From: a virus
Virus record (IMG/VR): IMGVR_UViG_3300032070_000613
Span: 77,096 to 141,095 of that record
Direction: 5' to 3' (one strand)
Length of the DNA: 64,000 nucleotides
Made by a program: the position numbers and the translations under genes. Shown in pieces: positions 21,269-63,810 of this stretch; within the stretch, counting starts at the first letter, position 1; every line of letters starts with the position of its first letter. The notes under the pieces are model-generated. The model saw only the letters and a program-made list of their open reading frames with translations. It made no database searches and was not told the origin of the DNA.

Positions 21269-22969
21269 ATGAATATAGATCCTCGTCATATTAAGCAAAT
21301 ATCAGATACTAAGGCAACATTATCTGGTGCTGGTCCAAAAAGATTAAAAAAGAAGCAGATCGCTATTCAAGAAGATCTCTCTGCTAAAAGATTGTCTTTC
21401 AGAACATCTCTGAATGAATATGTCGAATGCGCAAATGTAGCTGATGCCACAGGCATTACCGGTCCTGCTGGTATACCAGGACCTACAGGGCCCTCAGCGG
21501 GTCCTCAGGGAGATACAGGATTACCAGGTCCTACGGGTATAGCAGGGACTTATGGGTTAACAGGATTGCCAGGGATACAGGGGCCTACAGGAGCTTTTGG
21601 TGGTGCTCCTGGAGAGACAGGATTGCTTGGGGCTACTGGCGTCCGCGGCATGACAGGTATTAACGGTCTTATAGGCAGTACTGGATCGCAAGGTTTAACG
21701 GGTGCGTCTGGTGTGACAGGTATTTCTGGAGTGACTGGTGATCAAGGAAATACGGGCGTCCAAGGTTTAACTGGTTCTCAAGGAGCTACTGGAGTATCTG
21801 GCGTTACAGGATTGTTTGGTGTGACTGGAGATCAGGGGAATACAGGAGTACAGGGTGCGACTGGTGTAGGTCTGCAAGGAGTCACAGGAATTGGTGTCAC
21901 AGGTCTCAGTGGGGTAACCGGCTCTCGAGGAGAGACGGGATCTCAGGGTCTCACCGGATTGATTGGAATCACAGGGCTCGAAGGGAGTACGGGTGTCCAG
22001 GGAATAACTGGTGAACCTGGTTTGACCGGTATGCCTGGAATCACTGGTCAACAAGGCGCACAAGGGCTCACAGGTATCATAGGGATTACAGGAGCTCTTG
22101 GGACTACAGGTTTTGTAGGAATTACAGGTTTTCAGGGAATAACAGGTCTGCAAGGATCCCAAGGGATAACTGGAGAACAGGGTGCTACAGGAGCTCTTGG
22201 GACTACAGGTTATATAGGAATCACGGGTCAACAGGGAGCTCAGGGGCTCACAGGTGTTATTGGGCTGACCGGATCTCAAGGCATTACGGGAGAGCCTGGT
22301 CTAACAGGAATTTTAGGCATTACAGGGATTGTTGGAGTTCAAGGTTTAACGGGAGATCAGGGATCTCAAGGATTGACTGGTACTATTGGATTAACAGGAA
22401 CTATTGGAATTACAGGACAGCAGGGAGTATTTGGATTAACGGGATATGCTGGTATCACAGGTCCTGAGGGAGCTGGTGGTAATACGGGAGCACAGGGAGT
22501 AACTGGGAATCAAGGAGAAACAGGAGCTGGAATTCAAGGATCGACGGGATTGCGGGGATCAACCGGGATGTCTGGTATTGGTAGTGCAGGAGGCGTCACA
22601 GGAATGATCAATATCACATTCAACGGTAATAGCAATCCTGTGTCTACAGGCGAAAAAACCATAATAAATCTACCGTTTAATTTACAGCTGGATGGCTGGA
22701 GATTTCTAGCGAATGCGACAGGGAGTATTTCTGTTGATATGGCCATCTCTAGCTATACTAATTATCCTTTTACAGGGCCTCTTATGCATGCCGGTTCTAC
22801 AGGTCCTTATATATCTGCTGGAATAAAAAATGAAGATACAGATCTGAGTGATTGGGTTAATGCAACGGGAGCGGCAGGAGAACTAATCAGAGTTAGTGTA
22901 GGATCCGTGACAGGGATTTCTATGGCATATCTTTCTTTAAATTATCATCAACTCTATAATGTCATTTAA
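21269..22969 (+). CDS. Collagen-like (Gly-X-Y, GxT-rich) fibre protein
   Basis: About 380 residues of Gly-X-Y triplets rich in GxT/GxQ, followed by a globular C-terminal domain. Confidence 0.85.
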   Translation: MNIDPRHIKQISDTKATLSGAGPKRLKKKQIAIQEDLSAKRLSFRTSLNEYVECANVADATGITGPAGIPGPTGPSAGPQGDTGLPGPTGIAGTYGLTGLPGIQGPTGAFGGAPGETGLLGATGVRGMTGINGLIGSTGSQGLTGASGVTGISGVTGDQGNTGVQGLTGSQGATGVSGVTGLFGVTGDQGNTGVQGATGVGLQGVTGIGVTGLSGVTGSRGETGSQGLTGLIGITGLEGSTGVQGITGEPGLTGMPGITGQQGAQGLTGIIGITGALGTTGFVGITGFQGITGLQGSQGITGEQGATGALGTTGYIGITGQQGAQGLTGVIGLTGSQGITGEPGLTGILGITGIVGVQGLTGDQGSQGLTGTIGLTGTIGITGQQGVFGLTGYAGITGPEGAGGNTGAQGVTGNQGETGAGIQGSTGLRGSTGMSGIGSAGGVTGMINITFNGNSNPVSTGEKTIINLPFNLQLDGWRFLANATGSISVDMAISSYTNYPFTGPLMHAGSTGPYISAGIKNEDTDLSDWVNATGAAGELIRVSVGSVTGISMAYLSLNYHQLYNVI

Positions 22970-23190
22970 AAATGACGTTGTGGGAGTCTAGGGAGCTTAT
23001 TCAATAAAATGAATATGCAGACGTTACAACCAAAGTTCAAGAACGTACCTACGGATGCTTCACTAGTCCGTAGCTCTACAACTCTACCATTAAACAGGAA
23101 CGAAAGCGCCAGTGTGGTAGAGAAAGTACTGAGTTGTAACAATCCCGAAGTGAATCTACGGAAACAGGTATCCGGACTTACAGTCATTGT
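22948..23190 (+). ncRNA. omegaRNA scaffold (copy 1), boundaries approximate
   Basis: Structured ~240 nt region directly upstream of the PLMP codons (CTACGGATGCTTCACTAGTCCGTAG hairpin, TAAACAG...CAGTG, AACAATCCCGAAG), conserved in three copies. Confidence 0.8.
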
Positions 23191-24367
23191 ACCTGTACTC
23201 TCTTTGGAGGGGAGTCCTCTAATGCCGTGCACTCCAGTTAAAGCACGGCACCTTTTAGAAAAAAGGAGAGCCCATGTCGTAAAACTAAATCCTTTTATTA
23301 TTAGATTGAATTTCAAGTGTGAAAGCATAGTTCAGGAAATCAGTTTCGGAATGGATGCCGGATACAAAAATATTGGATATTCAGCGATTACAGATACAAA
23401 AGAAATTTTATCAGGTGAAATAGCTCTGGATAATAAAACTAAAAGCAGAATGAACGAAAGAAAAATGTATAGAAGAAATAGAAGGTATCGTCTGAGGTAT
23501 AGAAAACCAAGATTCGATAATAGGGTAAAACCCGAGGGATGGCTCCCTCCCTCTATAAAGAGAAAATTTGATACCCATATAAATTTCATAAAAGGGCTCA
23601 AAAAAATGTTACCTATCAAAAAGGTCACAGTTGAGATAGGAAATTTTGATATTCAAAAGATAGAGAATCCCGATATCTCTGGAGTCCAGTATCAGCAGGG
23701 TGATTTATACGGGTATTATAATTTGAAACTCTATCTTTTGGAGAGGGAAAAAGGAAAGTGTCAACTCTGCGGGAAAAAATTCACTAAAGAAAATAAACCC
23801 CACATGCACCATATAAAACAAAGGAGTGAGGGTGGTACTAGTAGAGCTGAGGGTATCGCTCTTATACATAAAAGTTGTCATGAAGATTTGCATAAGAAAA
23901 AATTATTTCATAAATTGAAACCAGCTAAAGCTTATAAAGCAGAAACTTTTATGTCTATAGTTGGAGGGATGTTCAAGAAATTTTTAGATTGTGATGTTAC
24001 TTACGGATATGAGACGTGTGCTAAAAGAAAAGAGTTAGGTTTAGAGAAATCTCATGTGAATGATGCCTTTGTTATAGCCGGAGGGACTATTCAAACTAGA
24101 TGCCTACCTAGTATGATAGAGCAAAAGAGAATTAATAACAGGACTCTGCAGACGAATAGAAAAGGTTTTTCTTCTTCTATTAGGAAACAGAGGCATAAAA
24201 TACAAAATAGAGATTTTATTTGGATTAGTGGTAAAAAATATTTGAGTGGAGGCGTGGCTAGTAGAGGGACTCAGGTATATTATTTTGATGGGAGTGAGAA
24301 GAAACTCATCCCTTCTAAAAAGATTGAAAAAATTTATAATACTGATAATTTGATTTGGCTAGATTAA
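23009..24367 (+). CDS. iscB: RNA-guided endonuclease IscB
   Basis: PLMP motif, RuvC-I GMDAG, RRxRR bridge helix (RRNRRYRLRYRKPRFDNR), WLPPS, RuvC-II VEIGNFD, CxxC-HH HNH region, RuvC-III SHVNDA. Confidence 0.93.
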   Translation: MNMQTLQPKFKNVPTDASLVRSSTTLPLNRNESASVVEKVLSCNNPEVNLRKQVSGLTVIVPVLSLEGSPLMPCTPVKARHLLEKRRAHVVKLNPFIIRLNFKCESIVQEISFGMDAGYKNIGYSAITDTKEILSGEIALDNKTKSRMNERKMYRRNRRYRLRYRKPRFDNRVKPEGWLPPSIKRKFDTHINFIKGLKKMLPIKKVTVEIGNFDIQKIENPDISGVQYQQGDLYGYYNLKLYLLEREKGKCQLCGKKFTKENKPHMHHIKQRSEGGTSRAEGIALIHKSCHEDLHKKKLFHKLKPAKAYKAETFMSIVGGMFKKFLDCDVTYGYETCAKRKELGLEKSHVNDAFVIAGGTIQTRCLPSMIEQKRINNRTLQTNRKGFSSSIRKQRHKIQNRDFIWISGKKYLSGGVASRGTQVYYFDGSEKKLIPSKKIEKIYNTDNLIWLD

Positions 24368-48532: not shown

Positions 48533-48750
48533 CGATGTAGGAGTCTAGGGAGCTTATTCAGTAACATGAATATGCAGACGTTACAACCAAAGTTCAAGAA
48601 CGTACCTACGGATGCTTCACTAGTCTGTAGCTCTACAACTCTACCATTAAACAGGAACGAAAGCGCCAGTGTGGTAGAGAAAGTACTGAGTTGTAACAAT
48701 CCCGAAGTGAATCTTCACTGGAAACGGGTATCCGGACTTAAAGTCATTGT
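48504..48750 (+). ncRNA. omegaRNA scaffold (copy 2), boundaries approximate
   Basis: Near-identical to the 22948-23190 scaffold; directly upstream of PLMP. Confidence 0.8.
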
Positions 48751-49927
48751 ACCCGTACTCTCTTTAAAAAGGAGTCCTTTAATGCCTTGCGGTTTGATCA
48801 AAGCTCGTCACTTAATTAAAGGAGGTAAAGCAAAAGTAGTTAAACTGAACCCACTAGTCATTCAGCTTAAATTTGACTGTGAAAACCAGATCCAAGATGT
48901 TTCTTTAGGTATTGATTCAGGCTATAAAACTATTGGATTCTCGGCTGTTTCTGAAATAAGAGAAGTTAGCGCTGGTGAGCTGAATCTAGATAATGGAACA
49001 TCAAAAAAGTTAATAGAAAAGAAAATGTATCGAAGGCATAGAAGAAACAGGCTGAGATACAGAAAACCAAGATTTAATAACAGAAAAAAATCTTCTGGGT
49101 GGCTTCCTCCTTCTATTCAGAGAAAATTTGATACGCACCTCAATCTGATAAAAAAGATAAAAGCTATAGTACCGGTTAAGAAGCTAACCATAGAGATAGG
49201 GGAATTTGATATTCAAAAGATAATGAACCCTGAGATTTCAGGCAAAAAATATCAGCAAGGTAATTTATTTGGGTATAATAATATGAGGTCTTTTTTGATA
49301 GCTCGTGAGAAAGGGAAATGTCAGTTATGTGGAAAAAAGTTCAGTAGAGATGATCCCTCTCATATGCATCATATAAAACCAAGGATTATGGGAGGTACTG
49401 ATAGACCCGATGATTTAGCTTTGGTACATAAAAGCTGTCATGATAAGATTCACAAGGAAAAACTTTTTAACAAACTCAAAAAAGCCAAGGAGTATAAAGC
49501 TGAGACTTTTATGGCTATTGTAGGGGCTAAATTTAAAAAAGTTTTGGATTGTGATATTACATATGGGTATGAGACTAAGACTAAAAGAGATTTATTGGAG
49601 ATAGATAAAAGCCATATCAATGATGCATTTGTAATAGCTGGTGGATCTACGCAGAAAAGATGCAAGCCTTATAAAATAGAACAGAAAAGGATCAACAACC
49701 GGACTCTGCAGACTAATAGGAAAGGTTTTTCAAAATCTATTAGGAAACAGAGGCATAAAATACAAAACAGGGATTTCATTTGGATTGATAGTAAAAAATA
49801 TTTGAGCGGGGGCGTGGCTTGTAGAGGGACTCAGGTATATTATTTTGATGCGAATGAGAAGAGGCTTATATCTTCAAAAAAGATAGAAAAAGTTTATCAT
49901 ACAGGGAGTTTAGTGTGGCTAAATTAA
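48566..49927 (+). CDS. iscB: RNA-guided endonuclease IscB
   Basis: PLMP, LGIDSG, RRHRRNRLRYRKPRFNNR, WLPPS, IEIGEFD, CQLC..HH, SHINDA. Confidence 0.93.
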   Translation: MNMQTLQPKFKNVPTDASLVCSSTTLPLNRNESASVVEKVLSCNNPEVNLHWKRVSGLKVIVPVLSLKRSPLMPCGLIKARHLIKGGKAKVVKLNPLVIQLKFDCENQIQDVSLGIDSGYKTIGFSAVSEIREVSAGELNLDNGTSKKLIEKKMYRRHRRNRLRYRKPRFNNRKKSSGWLPPSIQRKFDTHLNLIKKIKAIVPVKKLTIEIGEFDIQKIMNPEISGKKYQQGNLFGYNNMRSFLIAREKGKCQLCGKKFSRDDPSHMHHIKPRIMGGTDRPDDLALVHKSCHDKIHKEKLFNKLKKAKEYKAETFMAIVGAKFKKVLDCDITYGYETKTKRDLLEIDKSHINDAFVIAGGSTQKRCKPYKIEQKRINNRTLQTNRKGFSKSIRKQRHKIQNRDFIWIDSKKYLSGGVACRGTQVYYFDANEKRLISSKKIEKVYHTGSLVWLN

Positions 49928-59585: not shown

Positions 59586-60128
59586 TCATTTGACTGACCG
59601 ACATCCATAGATACATTCTGCCTGGTTCGTCAGCTCCAATATTATATCTTTAGCTTTATTCTCTTCTTCCCACTGACTAGAAGCTACGTTGTAGAAGAAA
59701 AAATGTAGGCGATATGTTTTAATGCTCGGGCATCCTCTGCCCTGGATATAGCTCTCGACACCGACCTGTATATTGTCTTTTCCCATGGCGTCTTTAGTCC
59801 TGAATACACTATAGCTAACATTGTAGATATATATAACGTCAGTTTTCTTGCTAGGGACAACATCTACGCAGAATAGTGGGTATAGCGTGATAGGTATGAT
59901 TTTAAAAACATATGTAGAGCCTACATGATCTCTGTTATAAACAAATTGCTGCTTTTTATACATTTTGATGAGGGTGTCTATTATCGGACGAAATTTAGTT
60001 TCATCATATGTTTTCTGGGTATCGTTGGAGAGCTCAGATTTAATCGTAGTTTTAGATAGTATGGGGGCAGACTGGGCGCAGGCATTGATGGATAGCATCA
60101 ATATCATTAAAATAGCTGTTTTTAACAT
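59586..60128 (-). CDS. Secreted/lipoprotein-like hypothetical protein
   Basis: N-terminal MLKTAILMILMLSINAC; GGGGA RBS on the minus strand; the only convincing minus-strand gene. Confidence 0.6.
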   Translation of the reverse strand: MLKTAILMILMLSINACAQSAPILSKTTIKSELSNDTQKTYDETKFRPIIDTLIKMYKKQQFVYNRDHVGSTYVFKIIPITLYPLFCVDVVPSKKTDVIYIYNVSYSVFRTKDAMGKDNIQVGVESYIQGRGCPSIKTYRLHFFFYNVASSQWEEENKAKDIILELTNQAECIYGCRSVK

Positions 60129-60261
60129 AGGATCCCCCTTTCTATATCATGGATTTTCCTATAAATAGATTATCATTTTTATGCGTCAAAAAGATATTTA
60201 ATATAGATCGTCAAATTTTACTGCTAAAAATAATAATATTTTTGATAAATAAAGAAAAAAC

Positions 60262-60290
60262 TTGACATTTATTTGAAAATGTCGTATATT
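60262..60290 (+). promoter_or_regulatory. Sigma70-type promoter driving the ncRNA cluster
   Basis: TTGACA-17 nt-TATATT with an A/T-rich upstream element. Confidence 0.8.
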
Positions 60291-60295
60291 AGAGT

Positions 60296-60307
60296 AGCTC
60301 TTTGAAA
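60296..60307 (+). promoter_or_regulatory. boxA-like antitermination site
   Basis: AGCTCTTTGAAA matches rrn-type boxA (GYTCTTTRAMA) just after the predicted TSS; a second copy GTTCTTTGATAA lies at 60917-60928. Confidence 0.55.
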
Positions 60308-60331
60308 TAGTTATTTTAGTAAGCACAAGCA

Positions 60332-60593
60332 GTAACCCTACAACGTCACTTAATAAATGACGCTGTGGGAGTCTAGGGAGCTTATTCAGTAAAATGAATA
60401 TGCAGACGTTACAACCAGAGTTCAAGAACGTACCTACGGATGCTTCACTAGTCCGTAGCTCTACAAATCTCTCTTTAAACAGACTGGAAACGGTCAGTGA
60501 GAGAGGTATAGTACTGGGCTGTAACAATCCCGAAGTGAATCTACGGAAACAGGTATCCGGACTTATAGTCACTGTACCTGTATATGAGTCCTT
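60332..60593 (+). ncRNA. Orphan omegaRNA (no IscB ORF)
   Basis: Homologous to the other two scaffolds; homology stops just before the PLMP codons; no right end. Confidence 0.8.
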
Positions 60594-60623
60594 ATTTTAA
60601 AATAAAGATTCATTTTAAAATTT

Positions 60624-60737
60624 GATAGTCTAATCTTTTATCGTAATGTGCCTACATCAGGCACACACCCCATGAGCCTTAGTTTAAAGCCGGGTTCATG
60701 GGGGTGTGCCGCACCTTAAAGCACACACAACTCGGAT
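60624..60737 (+). ncRNA. Y-RNA-like unit 1 (box A 60633-60657, long hairpin 60660-60710, box B 60719-60737)
   Basis: Shared box A/box B scaffold; ~19 bp GC-rich hairpin cargo. Confidence 0.6.
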
Positions 60738-60767
60738 AAAGTCATCATCCGTAAAAACGGATGATCC

Positions 60768-60902
60768 ACATCCTTTACCGCAAGGGCTTACATGATCTCA
60801 TAAATCATCGCCGGGCCTTAGAGCCCGGCACCCAGAGAGGCGACCGCCCTCAGTGGCGGAAACGTGCTCTGGAAAGCACTCGCAACTTGGATGTAGATTA
60901 TC
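60768..60902 (+). ncRNA. Y-RNA-like unit 2 (CAU anticodon arm plus GC-rich hairpins)
   Basis: Box A 60770-60793, box B 60874-60892; ATGAT-CTCATAA-ATCAT arm. Confidence 0.65.
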
Positions 60903-60941
60903 TTTTCGAATATGTCGTTCTTTGATAATATGAATAGAAGT

Positions 60942-61079
60942 TAAAAATTTTCATCCTTTATCGTATGGGCTTACATGGATAATGTTTTTATCTCATAAAT
61001 AAAAGCTAGATCGTTCAAACCGATCAAATCCCGTAAGGGATGGTTACTCAAGCACTTACAACTCGGATGAAAATTTTTA
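60942..61079 (+). ncRNA. Y-RNA-like unit 3 (CAU anticodon arm, T-arm, GNRA hairpin)
   Basis: Perfect 15 bp closing stem; box A 60953-60976, box B 61050-61068. Confidence 0.7.
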
Positions 61080-61084
61080 TATAG

Positions 61085-61252
61085 GTCGCTCTTTGATAGA
61101 GCGTGGATTGAAACAAGTCCAGCAAAGCGAACCAAAAACTGCAGCCGAGACTCGCGCATGTTCTTTTTGTCACTCTTTTAGAGAGCGTGGATTGAAACAA
61201 ATCAAGAAGAAAGCACCAAAAGTTGCATCTGAGATTTGCACACGTTTTTTAA
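61085..61252 (+). CRISPR. Two type I-C-like repeats (61085-61114, 61169-61198), each followed by a related ~54 nt sequence; no cas genes in window
   Basis: GTCGCTCTTTGATAGAGCGTGGATTGAAAC and GTCACTCTTTTAGAGAGCGTGGATTGAAAC; internal hairpin and GGATTGAAAC end typical of I-C repeats. Confidence 0.7.
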
Positions 61253-61257
61253 ATCGA

Positions 61258-61411
61258 AATTAAAAATGTATCTTTTACAGTGTGAACTTACATTTAGTCT
61301 TGGTTCGACTCCAAGTTAGCCCACGAAAGTAGGCTAGTAGTTCAACGGTAGAACAGTTGCCTATTAAGCAATCAAAAAAATAGTACGCACGACTCAGATA
61401 CATTTTTAATT
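61258..61411 (+). ncRNA. YrlA-like Y RNA unit 4 with circularly permuted tRNA domain
   Basis: Perfect 16 bp closing stem; T arm, GAAA-capped acceptor, D arm and anticodon arm in permuted order; near a Ro60-like gene. Confidence 0.8.
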
Positions 61412-61414
61412 CAT

Positions 61415-61450
61415 AAGCCGAGGAAGTTTAGCAGCTCTCTCGGCTTTTTT
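61415..61450 (+). terminator. Intrinsic terminator of the ncRNA cluster
   Basis: AAGCCGAG...CTCGGCTT stem plus T-tract. Confidence 0.7.
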
Positions 61451-61456
61451 ATTTGC

Positions 61457-61485
61457 TTGATAAGTTTATTATAAAAAAGTATATT
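61457..61485 (+). promoter_or_regulatory. Sigma70-type promoter (probably leaderless mRNA starting near ATG 61492)
   Basis: TTGATA-17 nt-TATATT, 6 nt before the ATG. Confidence 0.55.
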
Positions 61486-61491
61486 GAAGGC

Positions 61492-61827
61492 ATGGAAATA
61501 AGATATACCATAGGTGATTTGATAGCTTTAGGAAAAATTATTTCTAAAAAACCATGGGTTTTGAATAATACCTCATATGCGGATGAATATGATCTCATGC
61601 TGATGGATCTTAAAAAATCTTTACAAATGTCAGAAACAGCGAATAGAATTGCTAATGATAAGTTAGCACGTTGGATACAAAAAAATTTTCAATGGCACGG
61701 TCCGAATAATTTTAAAAGTCAAATAGTGCTTTTTATATTTCATACGTCGTTAGAGGAAGTGCCCTTGAATATCAATGACGAGCTATTGGCACCTTTCGCT
61801 AACTGGCGTCTCCGGATAGCCAAATAA
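61492..61827 (+). CDS. Hypothetical protein
   Basis: ORF ending SLEEVPLNINDE...WRLRIAK; own promoter. Confidence 0.55.
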   Translation: MEIRYTIGDLIALGKIISKKPWVLNNTSYADEYDLMLMDLKKSLQMSETANRIANDKLARWIQKNFQWHGPNNFKSQIVLFIFHTSLEEVPLNINDELLAPFANWRLRIAK

Positions 61828-61904: not shown

Positions 61905-62162
61905 ATGGCAGGCGTACATGTAGTTTATAACGGTCGTAACGAGGACATCGCATTCGAGCAGCTCTTCACGCCCGAGCGCCGTGCCGGAGTTGGCATCGCG
62001 GATGGGATTGTACTCTCGTCCTCAAACGTGACTGAGGACCAGGTGAAACGCGCCTTGTCTCAGTATTATGATGTCGGTGTGGGAGAATTTGACGATCATT
62101 TCGTCGAACTCAACCCAAACGGTAACGTGACCGTCCGTCCGAATACTCCTTTCGGTGGGTAA
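61905..62162 (+). CDS. Small putative ubiquitin-like (beta-grasp) protein ending in Gly-Gly
   Basis: Strong AGGAGG RBS; 85 aa; beta-beta-alpha-beta-beta-like pattern; C-terminus RPNTPFGG. Confidence 0.55.
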   Translation: MAGVHVVYNGRNEDIAFEQLFTPERRAGVGIADGIVLSSSNVTEDQVKRALSQYYDVGVGEFDDHFVELNPNGNVTVRPNTPFGG

Positions 62163-62223: not shown

Positions 62224-63810
62224 ATGGCTACCGCTACTCAGAAAAATACAGCCGCTCCGGAAAAAGAAGAAGACCTGCGGGTAAAAATCCTCAACACCTT
62301 CATGACGTGTGACCACCGAAATACCGAAATGTCAATGAAAGTGCACCAAGAGGTCCAGACGAAGGATCCCCTGTTCTATGCGCACCTCGCATGCTGGTAC
62401 CGTAAGAACGGCGAACTCCGAGATGTCAATGAGGTATTCTCGGCGCTGCTCAGTGTGGATCCATATCTCCCTAACCGTGAGGTAGGCCTGGCGCTTTTCC
62501 GGGAGCAGGCCCCATTCATGAAACGGCGCATCCTGGGTTTCATTAAGGGCAAGAAAGTCAAAGTCCGTGAGAAGACTGGTAAAAAAATCAAAATCGGTAA
62601 GAAGACCGTGGATGAAGTCAAAATCACCGAGAAAAAGGTAGGTCTCGATAAATCCCTGCCGACTGCGTTCAAGACGGAGGTCACGCGATATCTACGCTGG
62701 CTGGAGTCCAATACGGAGAAGTTTGATACGGTCGCTATCCGTAATGCTAAAGATCTAAAGGCACTCTATGCCTCTAACGGTCTGCAGATCAAACCATCGC
62801 CGCGGGCGCAGGCTATCCTATTCGATAAGGAGTATCCGAAAGATAGTAAGCTGAATATTTTCGAGAAAATCAGCACAGCAAAAACTCCCGAAGAAGCTGC
62901 GAAGCTCATTGTGGAGAACAAAGTCCCGTATACCGTCGCTGTGGGTTTGGTGGAAAAAATCACTCCATCTATCCTGGTGGCGCTCATCGATGCTATGAGT
63001 CCTCAGGAGTTGATCAACAATGTCGCCTCTCTGGAAGAAAAGGGAGCGATGGACAATCCGGACGTCAAAAAGCTGATCCAGGCTAAACTGGGGAAAGCTG
63101 AGAAATCCAAAACAGTCGCCACTTTGAAATCCAAAACAGCGAAAGCTACTGGTCGTATCAAGGATGAAGAAGTCCTCAAGCAGCTTGATAAGGTAGCTGA
63201 TGAGCAGGTCAAAAAGAGTGGTACTATTAAAGTCCCTACTGCGATCTTTATTGATCAGTCTGGTTCTATGGATAAAGCGATCGATGTAGGTAAGCGGTGT
63301 GCGGCGCTGGTGTCTGGTGTCACTACCGCCGATCTACATGTAGTTTGTTTTAATACGGCGGCTACCCCGATCACGTCTACGGAGAAGACTCTGACTGGTT
63401 GGGAGAGGGCGTTTGCGCCTATTCATGCCAATGGGGGTACGTCTATTGGGTGTGCCCTGGATTATCTGATGCGGCGTGGGCATGCGGTGGAGCAGCTCGT
63501 GGTTATTACGGATGAGCTAGAGAATAGCGCTCCGTTTTTCACAGATGTTTTTGCTAAGTATAAGGAGCAGGCCAAAGCCACTCCGCACGTTGTGATCATC
63601 AATGTCAGTGCGACGGCGCATAGCTATAGTGATCAGATTCTTCATGAGAGTTTGGATAAAGCGAAGATTACATATGATGTATATAAGCCCGCGAATTCAG
63701 ATTATTACGGGCTGCCGGGTTTAGTGACGTTACTATCTCGTAAGTCCAAACTGGATCTTGTGTATGAAATTCTGGATACGCCTTTGCTGGTCCGGAGGGA
63801 TTTTCGATAG
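62224..63810 (+). CDS. Ro60/TROVE-like RNA-binding protein with C-terminal vWA (MIDAS) domain
   Basis: N-terminal DPLFYAHLACWYRKNGELRD (TROVE-like), helical basic middle, IDQSGSM / GGTSIG / VITDELEN MIDAS motifs; GGAGG RBS. Confidence 0.75.
   Translation: MATATQKNTAAPEKEEDLRVKILNTFMTCDHRNTEMSMKVHQEVQTKDPLFYAHLACWYRKNGELRDVNEVFSALLSVDPYLPNREVGLALFREQAPFMKRRILGFIKGKKVKVREKTGKKIKIGKKTVDEVKITEKKVGLDKSLPTAFKTEVTRYLRWLESNTEKFDTVAIRNAKDLKALYASNGLQIKPSPRAQAILFDKEYPKDSKLNIFEKISTAKTPEEAAKLIVENKVPYTVAVGLVEKITPSILVALIDAMSPQELINNVASLEEKGAMDNPDVKKLIQAKLGKAEKSKTVATLKSKTAKATGRIKDEEVLKQLDKVADEQVKKSGTIKVPTAIFIDQSGSMDKAIDVGKRCAALVSGVTTADLHVVCFNTAATPITSTEKTLTGWERAFAPIHANGGTSIGCALDYLMRRGHAVEQLVVITDELENSAPFFTDVFAKYKEQAKATPHVVIINVSATAHSYSDQILHESLDKAKITYDVYKPANSDYYGLPGLVTLLSRKSKLDLVYEILDTPLLVRRDFR

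What the first reader, a model, noticed from the sequence alone, without database searches (positions are those of the whole stretch)
60262..61450. A ~1.15 kb all-RNA operon combining an omegaRNA, Y-like RNAs and CRISPR repeats
Seen: near-consensus promoter (60262-60290), boxA-like site at the TSS (60296) and again internally (60917), no credible protein gene, terminator at 61415-61450. Established: boxA/Nus antitermination protects long untranslated transcripts such as rRNA operons and some CRISPR arrays from Rho. Inference: one early, host-polymerase-driven transcript delivers several RNA effectors or decoys, released through long A/U-rich closing stems (RNase III-like) and possibly Cas5d cleavage. 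This would be an RNA-only counter-defence island.
Basis: partly seen in the sequence, partly recalled or inferred. Interest (0 to 1): 0.75.

Follow-up and report, generated by a model that had tools for sequence, protein, structure and literature searches.

The report
Phage small-RNA operon with boxA signals
A giant sediment phage appears to transcribe about 1.2 kb of protein-free DNA as one unit laid out like a ribosomal-RNA operon, carrying four folded partner RNAs for its Ro60 protein, two CRISPR-repeat look-alikes and a stray guide RNA for its IscB nucleases; the parts are known kinds but the assembly and its repeated anti-termination signals are new.

Summary
These are the promoter (60262-60290, 11/12, the only perfect TTGACA promoter in the 141-kb contig), boxA-like motifs (60297, 60917), a terminator (61415-61450, -15.9 kcal/mol), and no credible ORF. 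The RNA contents are also real:
- a HEARO/omegaRNA above the Rfam cut-off;
- four stem-closed modules with strong covariation;
- two type I-C-type repeats.

The next long gene downstream folds as Ro60.

Related phages keep the same frame (promoter, boxA just after the -10, modules, terminator) with different cargo, which supports one transcription unit. No expression data could be obtained.

The boxA reading is strengthened. The motif matches the B. subtilis-type boxA (GAUCUUUGAAA). In other relatives it matches the E. coli type (UGCUCUUUAACA). It is about 50-fold enriched in these clusters and usually precedes each module.

- The omegaRNA is absent from every relative examined (the four closest included), so it is an insertion (or sole retention) in this lineage.
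- The repeat "spacers" are remnants of a deleted tRNA module.
- "Counter-defence island" has a precedent only for the repeat mimics (RacrIC1).

"Early" timing, RNase III cleavage and Cas5d cleavage remain inference. Earlier notes of this scan report similar Ro60/tRNA-mimic/I-C-repeat operons on other DNA.

The parts
60262..60290 (+). Sigma70-type promoter (TTGACA-N17-TATATT) with an A-rich upstream tract
   Evidence: 11/12; only perfect -35 promoter in 141 kb; the -35 and GTATATT are invariant in 6 phages while the spacer varies.
60297..60309 (+). boxA-like motif 1 (GCTCTTTGAAATA), starting about at the predicted transcription start
   Evidence: It has the same position as GATCTTTGAAATA in L139/L140. 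The consensus comes from PMC13753749.
60317..60332 (+). Guide segment of the orphan omegaRNA (16 nt directly 5' of the scaffold)
   Evidence: the three omegaRNA copies differ upstream of 60333; no second match in the 141-kb contig.
60333..60591 (+). Orphan HEARO/omegaRNA scaffold with no IscB ORF behind it
   Evidence: 90.2 bits, GA 83; close sequence match to the two IscB-linked copies (mean column identity 80% over the 361-381-nt stretches aligned, flanks included) up to the IscB start codon; 7 compensatory pairs among the three copies.
60624..60746 (+). Module 1: Y-like scaffold holding a long GC-rich hairpin
   Evidence: -44.3 kcal/mol, z -5.2. Scaffold motifs.
60760..60902 (+). Module 2: Y-like scaffold with three-hairpin cargo; homologues in L140, L139, L137
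   Evidence: z -3.9; 10 of 37 pairs have compensatory changes.
60917..60929 (+). boxA-like motif 2 (GTTCTTTGATAAT), 13 nt before module 3
60942..61079 (+). Module 3: Y-like scaffold closed by a perfect 15-bp A/U-rich stem
   Evidence: I3. (z -5.0).
61085..61168 (+). Repeat unit 1: type I-C-type repeat (61085-61114) plus a 54-nt remnant of a tRNA module
   Evidence: the same repeat ends occur in a real I-C array next to cas5d-csd1-cas7-cas4-cas1-cas2. (remnant homology). (repeat hairpin).
61169..61252 (+). Repeat unit 2: diverged duplicate (77% identity over 82 nt; repeat 27/30)
   Evidence: (D1).
61258..61411 (+). Module 4: YrlA-like tRNA mimic closed by a perfect 16-bp A/U-rich stem
   Evidence: YrlA 26.3 bits, below GA 69. 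(I1); 97.8% of cells paired, 17 pairs changed on both sides against 6.3 in shuffles.
61415..61450 (+). Intrinsic terminator of the RNA operon
   Evidence: Homologous terminators in L140 (-22.7) and L139 (-24.8) sit at the same place.
61457..61485 (+). Separate promoter for the downstream protein genes (124 aa, 85 aa, Ro60); context only
   Evidence: 10/12. Conserved in L139 and L137.
62224..63810 (+). Ro60 (TROVE + vWA) orthologue, the likely protein partner of the modules; context only
   Evidence: AF2 pLDDT 80; full-length Foldseek matches to Ro60/Rsr/phiLo Ro60, E about 1e-10, TM 0.6.
23009..24367 (+). IscB gene 1 (RRXRR + HNH) with its own omegaRNA; possible user of the orphan guide RNA
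48566..49927 (+). IscB gene 2 (RRXRR + HNH) with its own omegaRNA

Best explanation
Window 60262-61450 is one protein-free, polycistronic small-RNA operon of a huge phage. It lies directly upstream of the phage's Ro60 gene cassette and is laid out like a bacterial rRNA operon. Host sigma70 RNA polymerase starts at about 60296. The first bases transcribed are a boxA, inferred to recruit host NusB/S10. That would make the elongation complex resistant to Rho and to the weak internal hairpin-plus-U tracts, and would help each module's distant 5' and 3' strands to pair. The transcript carries, in order: an orphan omegaRNA; modules 1 and 2; a second boxA; module 3; two I-C repeat units; module 4 (a YrlA-like tRNA mimic). 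It ends at the terminator 61415-61450. Processing at the long closing stems, by RNase III or a similar enzyme, is inferred to release the modules, and the modules are inferred to bind the phage Ro60. The repeat units are inferred to act like RNA anti-CRISPRs on a host type I-C system, or to serve as Cas5d cleavage sites. The omegaRNA is a PATE-like insertion found only in this phage lineage. It gains strong expression from the operon promoter and can only work with the two IscB proteins encoded elsewhere on the contig. Shown here: the anatomy, the homology, the covariation and the motif matches. Inferred: all protein binding, all processing and the timing.
For: Frame conserved in relatives: L139, L140, L012 and L009 each show one consensus promoter, then modules, then a terminator. 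In L139 and L140 GATCTTTGAAATA follows the -10 by 7 nt (in L012 the first motif lies 47 nt after the -10; L009 has the variant GTTCTTTCT there). The -35 and -10 are invariant while the spacer is free. Terminators are homologous. Only one strong promoter lies in the window's cluster. Internal hairpin-plus-T tracts are weak, -5.5 and -3.1 kcal/mol, no better than shuffles. boxA: the published B. subtilis consensus is AUGAUCUUUGAAA and the E. coli consensus UGCUCUUUAACA (PMC13753749). The phage motifs match these exactly in L012/L008/L139/L140 and in L007/L004 respectively. Motif density is 2.1 per kb in the clusters against 0.04 per kb elsewhere, Poisson P about 1e-33. RNA reality and strand: HEARO is above the cut-off, and modules 2 and 4 covary. 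Ro60 fold. The repeats are of I-C type and recur in the clusters of L010, L139 and L140. RacrIC1 is the experimental precedent (PMC10651486). OmegaRNA: it is absent from all relatives examined, and its stems are kept by compensatory changes. Protein-less elements carrying omegaRNAs that act in trans are described in Meers et al..
Against: L008 has three promoter-like sites inside its cluster, so per-module transcription exists in at least one relative. The boxA motif is partly or wholly base-paired in some modules. In L140 module 4 it pairs perfectly with a 3' complement, and in L007 GCTC pairs with GAGC. BoxA is bound as a single strand, so there it would act only co-transcriptionally, or the motif is a structural or processing element instead. 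Modules 1, 2 and 4 of the window have no good boxA in front of them. YrlA scores far below the Rfam cut-off, and the published Ro60-binding motif (GNCGAA, CGAA) is present only with a one-base insertion (CGUAA, CGCAA). No Cas5d, RNase III or NusB gene is found on the 141-kb fragment, which is about 30% of the genome. The host is unknown, so a host I-C system is assumed.
Confidence: 0.62

Rival explanations
1. The region is not one operon but a row of independent small-RNA genes. Each would use its own weak promoter and its closing stem plus U-run as terminator. The GNTCTTTGA motif would then be part of a promoter or start-site context rather than boxA.
For: L008 has three TTGATC-N17-TATATT sites, each followed by the motif. 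Several modules end in T-runs.
Against: Inside the window cluster the only promoter-like site is a 9/12 match within the omegaRNA. L012 has six to seven modules behind a single promoter. The closing stems enclose 100-nt structured loops, and the local hairpins before the T-runs are weak. The TTGAAA inside the motif has no -10 at a workable spacing.
Confidence: 0.12
2. The recurring GNTCTTTGA(A) motif is not a Nus-factor site. It would instead be a processing or folding element of each module (the foot of the closing stem), or a relic of the I-C repeat's 5' half. Its likeness to boxA would be coincidental.
For: GAAAT pairs with GTTTC of the 3' tail in L012 modules. The motif is fully paired in L140 module 4. 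In the window the motif sits in the repeat-1 hairpin (61088), and D5/D6 link 60294, 60903 and 61074. In L137 a boxA-like string replaces the repeat of L140.
Against: Twelve- to thirteen-base identity to two different published boxA consensus forms in different phage lineages is hard to get by chance. Its place directly after the start site in L139, L140, L008 and the window, where nothing pairs with it, fits a leader boxA. The repeats of L010 and L140 lack the motif. rRNA boxA also lies next to leader-trailer helices (PMC13753749).
Confidence: 0.22
3. The omegaRNA is only a selfish passenger. It would be a protein-less (PATE-like) IscB-element remnant that landed behind a strong promoter. It would guard its own insertion site and add nothing to the operon's function.
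For: It is absent from all 19 related loci scanned with Rfam, including four with 82-83% Ro60 identity. L137 has an unrelated insert in the same slot. Its guide has no target in the 141-kb contig. PATEs carrying omegaRNAs are known.
Against: Its stems are kept by compensatory changes relative to the IscB-linked copies. It retains a distinct guide and sits behind the strongest promoter, so it is expressed if the operon is.
Confidence: 0.45
4. The cluster is a decaying tRNA array with no present function: pseudo-tRNAs plus debris.
For: More distant relatives have ordinary tRNA arrays upstream of Ro60 (L015). ARAGORN finds no tRNA in the window or the contig. The repeat 'spacers' are deletion remnants.
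Against: Strong compensatory covariation occurs in closing stems and cargo arms. The promoter, boxA and terminator are conserved.
Confidence: 0.04

Closest known systems
Bacterial rRNA (rrn) operons with boxA/Nus antitermination and leader-trailer processing helices
   Same: Both have a strong sigma70 promoter and a boxA at the start that recurs before later units. Both make a long untranslated, highly structured transcript in which each product is enclosed by a long-range helix formed by its flanks. The boxA sequences are identical to the B. subtilis or E. coli consensus.
   Different: The cargo is 120-155-nt Ro60-type or tRNA-mimic RNAs, CRISPR-repeat mimics and an omegaRNA, not rRNA. A boxA stands before nearly every module in relatives. 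The operon is phage-encoded. Nus-factor dependence has not been tested.
Ro60 (Rsr) with Y RNAs, especially YrlA of bacteria and phages (Chen et al. 2014, PMC4201824; Thermus phage phiLo Yrl1/Yrl2, PMC12135203)
   Same: The non-coding RNAs are encoded just upstream of a Ro60 gene on the same strand. Each has a long 5'-3' stem and a large internal loop. At least one has a tRNA-like domain (T arm, D arm), and it gives a partial YrlA covariance-model hit.
   Different: Scores are far below the Rfam cut-off (26 against 69 bits). A different conserved inner helix is used (GCNUACAU / ACRACUYG). The CGAA motif is present only with an inserted base. There are four or more modules with interchangeable cargo, and two small conserved genes lie between the RNAs and Ro60.
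RNA anti-CRISPRs / viral solitary repeat units, RacrIC1 (Camara-Wilpert et al. 2023, PMC10651486)
   Same: These are type I-C repeat look-alikes in a viral genome without cas genes. They are co-transcribed with other anti-defence or accessory elements.
   Different: They are embedded in a Ro60/Y-RNA operon about 820 nt from the promoter. They form a two-copy tandem in which the 'spacer' is a remnant of a tRNA module. In relatives the repeat directly abuts a tRNA-bearing module. No inhibition has been tested.
HEARO/omegaRNA of IscB (OMEGA) elements, and protein-less PATE-like elements carrying omegaRNAs (Meers et al., bioRxiv 10.1101/2023.03.14.532601)
   Same: It is a full-length match to RF02033 and closely matches (80% mean column identity over stretches that include the flanks) the omegaRNAs of two intact IscB genes on the same contig. 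It has a distinct 5' guide segment.
   Different: No IscB ORF follows it. It sits inside a non-coding operon behind a boxA. Its transposon ends were not identified.
boxA-led CRISPR arrays (Stringer et al. 2020, as cited in PMC7862264 and PMC13753749)
   Same: A boxA stands upstream of CRISPR-type repeats on an untranslated transcript.
   Different: This is not an array: there are two repeats, no cas genes and no acquired spacers.

Membership tests
HEARO / IscB omegaRNA (RF02033) | Covariance-model score at or above the Rfam gathering score over the full model | tested here: met
   90.2 bits against 83, model positions 1-211.
HEARO / IscB omegaRNA (RF02033) | Lies directly upstream of, or overlaps, an IscB (RRXRR + HNH) ORF | tested here: not met
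   No such ORF follows 60544, and homology to the IscB-linked copies stops at the IscB start codon. Two IscB genes lie elsewhere on the contig.
boxA (NusB/S10 site) | Sequence match to a lineage's boxA consensus | tested here: met
   The window has GCUCUUUGAAA, one mismatch to the B. subtilis consensus GAUCUUUGAAA. Relatives match the B. subtilis or E. coli consensus exactly.
boxA (NusB/S10 site) | Location in the leader of a long untranslated transcript, downstream of the promoter | tested here: met
   It lies 7 nt after the -10 in the window, L139 and L140, and 6 nt after in L008.
boxA (NusB/S10 site) | Binds NusB:S10 and confers antitermination | not testable with these tools
   This needs EMSA or NMR and reporter assays. 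The host is unknown.
Type I-C CRISPR repeat | 5' GTCGC, a hairpin, and the 3' handle GTGGATTGAAAC shared with repeats of arrays next to cas5d-csd1-cas7 | tested here: met
   (L024 array plus cas genes). Repeat 1 forms a 6-bp hairpin.
CRISPR array | Regular repeat-spacer units with unrelated spacers of about 34 nt, usually next to cas genes | tested here: not met
   There are two repeats with an 84-nt period. The 'spacers' are homologous to each other and to a tRNA-module 3' end. No Cas5d is found on the contig.
Racr / viral solitary repeat unit | Repeat mimic in a virus without cas genes, and expressed (promoter upstream) | tested here: inconclusive
   The mimic and the absence of cas genes are met. 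The promoter is 820 nt upstream rather than within the 250 nt used in PMC10651486. Expression is untested.
Racr / viral solitary repeat unit | Inhibits the cognate CRISPR-Cas system | not testable with these tools
   This needs plaque or conjugation assays as in PMC10651486.
Y RNA / YrlA (RF02553) | Covariance-model score at or above the gathering score | tested here: not met
   26.3 bits against 69, covering only the tRNA-like core of module 4.
Y RNA / YrlA (RF02553) | Encoded next to a Ro60 orthologue | tested here: met
   The Ro60 fold of 62224-63810 is confirmed. The cluster ends 774 nt upstream on the same strand.
Y RNA / YrlA (RF02553) | 5'-3' stem with an internal loop carrying the GNCGAA / CGAA Ro60-binding motif | tested here: inconclusive
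   The stem and loop are present. The motif reads CGUAA, CGCAA or CGUAU, that is, with an extra base (motif).

The most novel reading that the evidence does not exclude
Huge phages may have copied the logic of the rRNA operon into a plug-in RNA expression platform. In this reading, a boxA in front of each module tethers that module's 5' strand to the Nus-modified polymerase until the distant 3' strand appears. This would guarantee both read-through and correct closure of the long-range stem. Any RNA cargo could then be dropped into a slot and delivered at high dose from one host-recognised promoter: real tRNAs, tRNA decoys for Ro60, CRISPR-repeat mimics or an omegaRNA. The boxA version (Bacillus type or E. 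coli type) would track the host lineage.
Probability: 0.3. Interest if true: 0.8.

Novelty: new variant of a known kind. Interest (0 to 1): 0.62.

Why it matters
If the operon works as inferred, it shows that phages exploit the host's rRNA antitermination machinery to mass-produce structured non-coding RNAs. It also shows that three RNA-guided or RNA-decoy systems normally studied apart are physically combined on one transcript: Ro60/Y RNA, CRISPR-repeat mimics and OMEGA guide RNAs. This gives a concrete, testable case for how long untranslated phage transcripts escape Rho, and for a per-module use of boxA that has not been described. It is also a natural context in which an omegaRNA is expressed separately from its nuclease. 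The conserved frame with exchangeable cargo could serve as a natural design for multiplexed small-RNA expression in bacteria.

Tried and rejected
- DNA similarity to deposited phages: none.
- A single-protein search for relatives in IMG/VR found none; an alignment query was needed.
- The exact window repeat in 185,579 genomes: no match, so no host could be named. The looser pattern hits I-C arrays in many phyla and does not narrow the host.
- tRNA genes: ARAGORN finds none in the window or the contig, so the cargo elements are mimics or fragments, not standard tRNAs.
- Internal terminators: the hairpin-plus-T tracts at 61150-61168 and 61233-61250, and the one after the omegaRNA, are no more stable than shuffled sequence. 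They were rejected as efficient stops.
- Internal promoters: only a 9/12 site lies inside the omegaRNA.
- The motif as the -35 of internal promoters: rejected, because no -10 lies at a usable spacing.
- The motif as a relic of the I-C repeat: rejected as a general explanation, because relatives with many motifs have no repeat and the repeats of L010 and L140 lack the motif. The overlap is real only in window repeat 1.
- Self-targeting by the orphan guide: no other match in the contig.
- One 18-nt match in IMG/VR (L150) is within chance expectation.
- Phage-encoded Cas5d, RNase III and NusB: none on the 141-kb fragment. The genome is only about 30% complete, so absence is not shown.
- ORFs in the region: no Pfam family.
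Full report
**Setting**

The window is the last 64 kb of a 141-kb IMG/VR virus contig that CheckV rates about 30% complete, so the phage is probably several hundred kb. The neighbourhood encodes DNA polymerase A, an NAD-dependent ligase, a ParB-like protein and an HNH endonuclease. Two IscB genes, each with its own omegaRNA, also lie in the window.

The gene just upstream of the finding (59586-60128) is on the minus strand, so the finding starts in a divergent intergenic region. Downstream lie a separate promoter (61457-61485), two small conserved genes and a 528-aa protein. Pfam barely recognises that protein. Its AlphaFold model (pLDDT 80) matches Ro60, Rsr and phage phiLo Ro60 over its full length (Foldseek E about 1e-10, TM 0.6).

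**Observation check**

All listed features are present.

- **Promoter.** TTGACA-N17-TATATT at 60262-60290 scores 11/12. It is the only perfect -35 site among five promoters of this class on both strands of the 141-kb contig.
- **boxA-like motifs.** GCTCTTTGAAATA starts 7 nt after the -10 (60297), and GTTCTTTGATAAT lies at 60917.
- **Terminator.** 61415-61450 folds at -15.9 kcal/mol with a U-run.
- **ORFs.** The short ORFs on both strands have no Pfam family, and the one inside module 2 is frameshifted in a close relative.
- **OmegaRNA.** A HEARO hit lies above the Rfam cut-off (60359-60544, 90.2 bits).
- **Modules.** Four modules are closed by long stems, two of them perfect 15- and 16-bp A/U-rich inverted repeats. 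They share a 5' GCNTACAT and a 3' ACRACTYGG element.
- **Repeats.** Two repeats have the ends of type I-C repeats.

**Are the parts real RNAs on the + strand?**

*OmegaRNA.* It closely matches the two IscB-linked copies from 60333 to the point where their IscB start codon lies (mean column identity 80% over the aligned stretches, flanks included). It differs from them in the 16 nt upstream, which is the guide position. The alignment of the three copies shows seven compensatory base-pair changes.

*Modules 2 and 4.* Both have homologues in phages whose Ro60 is 82-83% identical (L137-L140).
- In module 4, 97.8% of cells pair.
- In module 4, 17 of 46 pairs changed on both sides, against 6.3 in shuffles and 1-2 when the partners are slid.
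- Module 2 has 10 of 37 such pairs.

*Repeats.* The repeat ends GTCGCTC...GAGCGTGGATTGAAAC occur in genuine arrays of more than 120 genomes. One array that I checked sits next to cas5d-csd1-cas7-cas4-cas1-cas2.

**One operon?**

No read data could be obtained, so the case rests on comparative anatomy.

L139, L140, L012 and L009 show the same frame:
- an A-rich tract;
- an invariant cTTGACA and GTATATT with a free spacer;
- then modules, a terminator homologous to the window's, and a second promoter for the protein genes.

In L139 and L140 the motif GATCTTTGAAATA follows the -10 by 7 nt, as in the window. In L012 the first motif lies 47 nt after the -10, and L009 has the variant GTTCTTTCT at that place.

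L012 has six or seven modules behind one promoter. Inside the window cluster there is no further credible promoter, and the internal hairpin-plus-T tracts are no more stable than shuffled sequence. One relative (L008) has three promoter-like sites, so multiple starts are possible in this family.

**boxA**

A 2026 paper gives the B. subtilis rrn boxA consensus as AUGAUCUUUGAAA. It shows that this sequence binds BsNusB, and it gives the E. coli consensus as UGCUCUUUAACA (PMC13753749).

- The phage motif is GATCTTTGAAA in L012, L008, L139 and L140.
- It is TGCTCTTTAACA in L007 and L004.
- It is GCTCTTTGAAA in the window, one mismatch from the Bacillus form.

The core G-N-TCTTT-R-A occurs 25 times in 11.7 kb of cluster sequence against 13 times in 315 kb elsewhere. 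That is about 50-fold enrichment, Poisson P about 1e-33.

The motif is not just a leader element. In relatives it precedes almost every module, at the foot of the closing stem. In L012 its GAAAT pairs with GTTTC of the 3' tail. In L140 module 4 it pairs fully with a 3' complement. In L007 its GCTC is the last part of the closing stem.

This is the arrangement of rRNA operons, where boxA precedes the leader-trailer helices of 16S and 23S. I therefore favour a co-transcriptional role: Nus loading, read-through and help in closing long-range stems. A purely structural or processing role cannot be excluded. In the window only the leader, module 3 and repeat 1 have a good copy.

1. *The omegaRNA is a local insertion.* None of the 19 related loci scanned with Rfam has a HEARO. 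In L139 and L140 the first module follows boxA directly. L137 carries an unrelated 400-nt insert with its own promoter and motif at the same slot. Protein-less elements that carry omegaRNAs and depend on nucleases encoded elsewhere are described. Its guide has no second match on the contig, and the single 18-nt match in IMG/VR is within chance.

2. *The repeat "spacers" are module remnants.* L140, L139 and L010 have I-C-type repeats that directly abut a module. The window's 54-nt segments align with the T-arm 3' strand, the acceptor 3' strand, CCA and the 3' scaffold strand of that module. So a deletion fused the repeat to the module's tail, and the unit then duplicated. The repeat (27/30) is better kept than the remnant. 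In L137 the repeat slot holds a boxA-like string instead.

3. *"Counter-defence" is only partly grounded.* An experimental precedent exists only for the repeat mimics (RacrIC1, PMC10651486). The modules fit the Ro60/Y-RNA pattern (Chen et al. 2014; phiLo Ro60), but they fail the YrlA model cut-off and carry the CGAA motif only with an inserted base.

**What is not shown**

- Transcription itself and its timing.
- Nus-factor binding.
- RNase III or Cas5d cleavage.
- Ro60 binding.
- IscB use of the orphan guide.
- The host. No Cas5d, RNase III or NusB gene is on the available fragment.

**Novelty**

Each component belongs to a known kind. New here are:
- their assembly on one boxA-punctuated, rRNA-operon-like transcript;
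- the per-module boxA in two lineage-specific forms;
- the evidence that the frame is a slot system with exchangeable cargo.

Earlier notes of this scan describe similar Ro60/tRNA-mimic/I-C-repeat transcripts and a boxA-framed phage tRNA array on other DNA. These are unchecked AI notes and were not used as evidence.

Noticed in passing
window 60315-60332; L150 6399-6416: The orphan omegaRNA's guide plus two bases has one exact 18-nt match in IMG/VR. It lies 22 nt into an ORF (MFDYIKNLFSKHKQEQ...) of an unrelated 25.7-kb viral contig. My rough estimate (collection size assumed, not given by the tool) is that one to three such hits are expected by chance, so this is only a lead for inter-phage targeting.
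   Followed up: partly
L137 1596-1990 (same in L138): A close relative carries a different insert of about 400 nt at the exact slot where the window has the omegaRNA. The insert has its own promoter (TTGACT-N17-TATACT), a GTTCTTTGACA motif and a folded RNA (z -2.6) that matches no Rfam family.
   Followed up: partly
window 61115-61168 and 61199-61252; L140 3400-3470; L137 2415-2475: The 'spacers' behind the two I-C-type repeats are homologous to the 3' end (T-arm 3' strand, acceptor 3' strand, CCA, 3' scaffold strand) of the tRNA-bearing module that follows the single repeat in relatives.
   Followed up: yes
L137 2300-2335 versus L140 3296-3330: In otherwise homologous clusters, the I-C-type repeat of L140 is replaced in L137 by TTAAAATTAACGATCTTTTC, a boxA-like string. 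Repeat and boxA therefore occupy the same slot.
   Followed up: no
window 61356-61372; also L139, L137, L012, L009, L007 cargo: The anticodon-like loop CUAUUAA (which would read anticodon AUU) recurs in the tRNA-like cargo of many modules across phages. This suggests a decoy or ligand role rather than decoding.
   Followed up: no
window 60198-60572 (-) and 22966-23328 (-): An antisense ORF of 120-124 aa runs across two of the three omegaRNA copies. It has no Pfam hit and is probably a by-product of the close sequence match between the copies.
   Followed up: partly
window 61453-61827 and 61905-62162: Two small genes lie between the RNA operon and Ro60: one of 124 aa, and one of 85 aa ending in GG. 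The 85-aa gene has clear homologues at this place in L010, L008, L009 and L012, and a 124-aa-like ORF also precedes it in L010. Neither has a Pfam or PHROG family.
   Followed up: no
L015 700-2100; L014: In phages whose Ro60 is only 39% identical, the gene is preceded by an ordinary array of about 11 tRNA genes, without the scaffold or boxA motifs. This hints that the module scaffold evolved from tRNA-array flanks.
   Followed up: no
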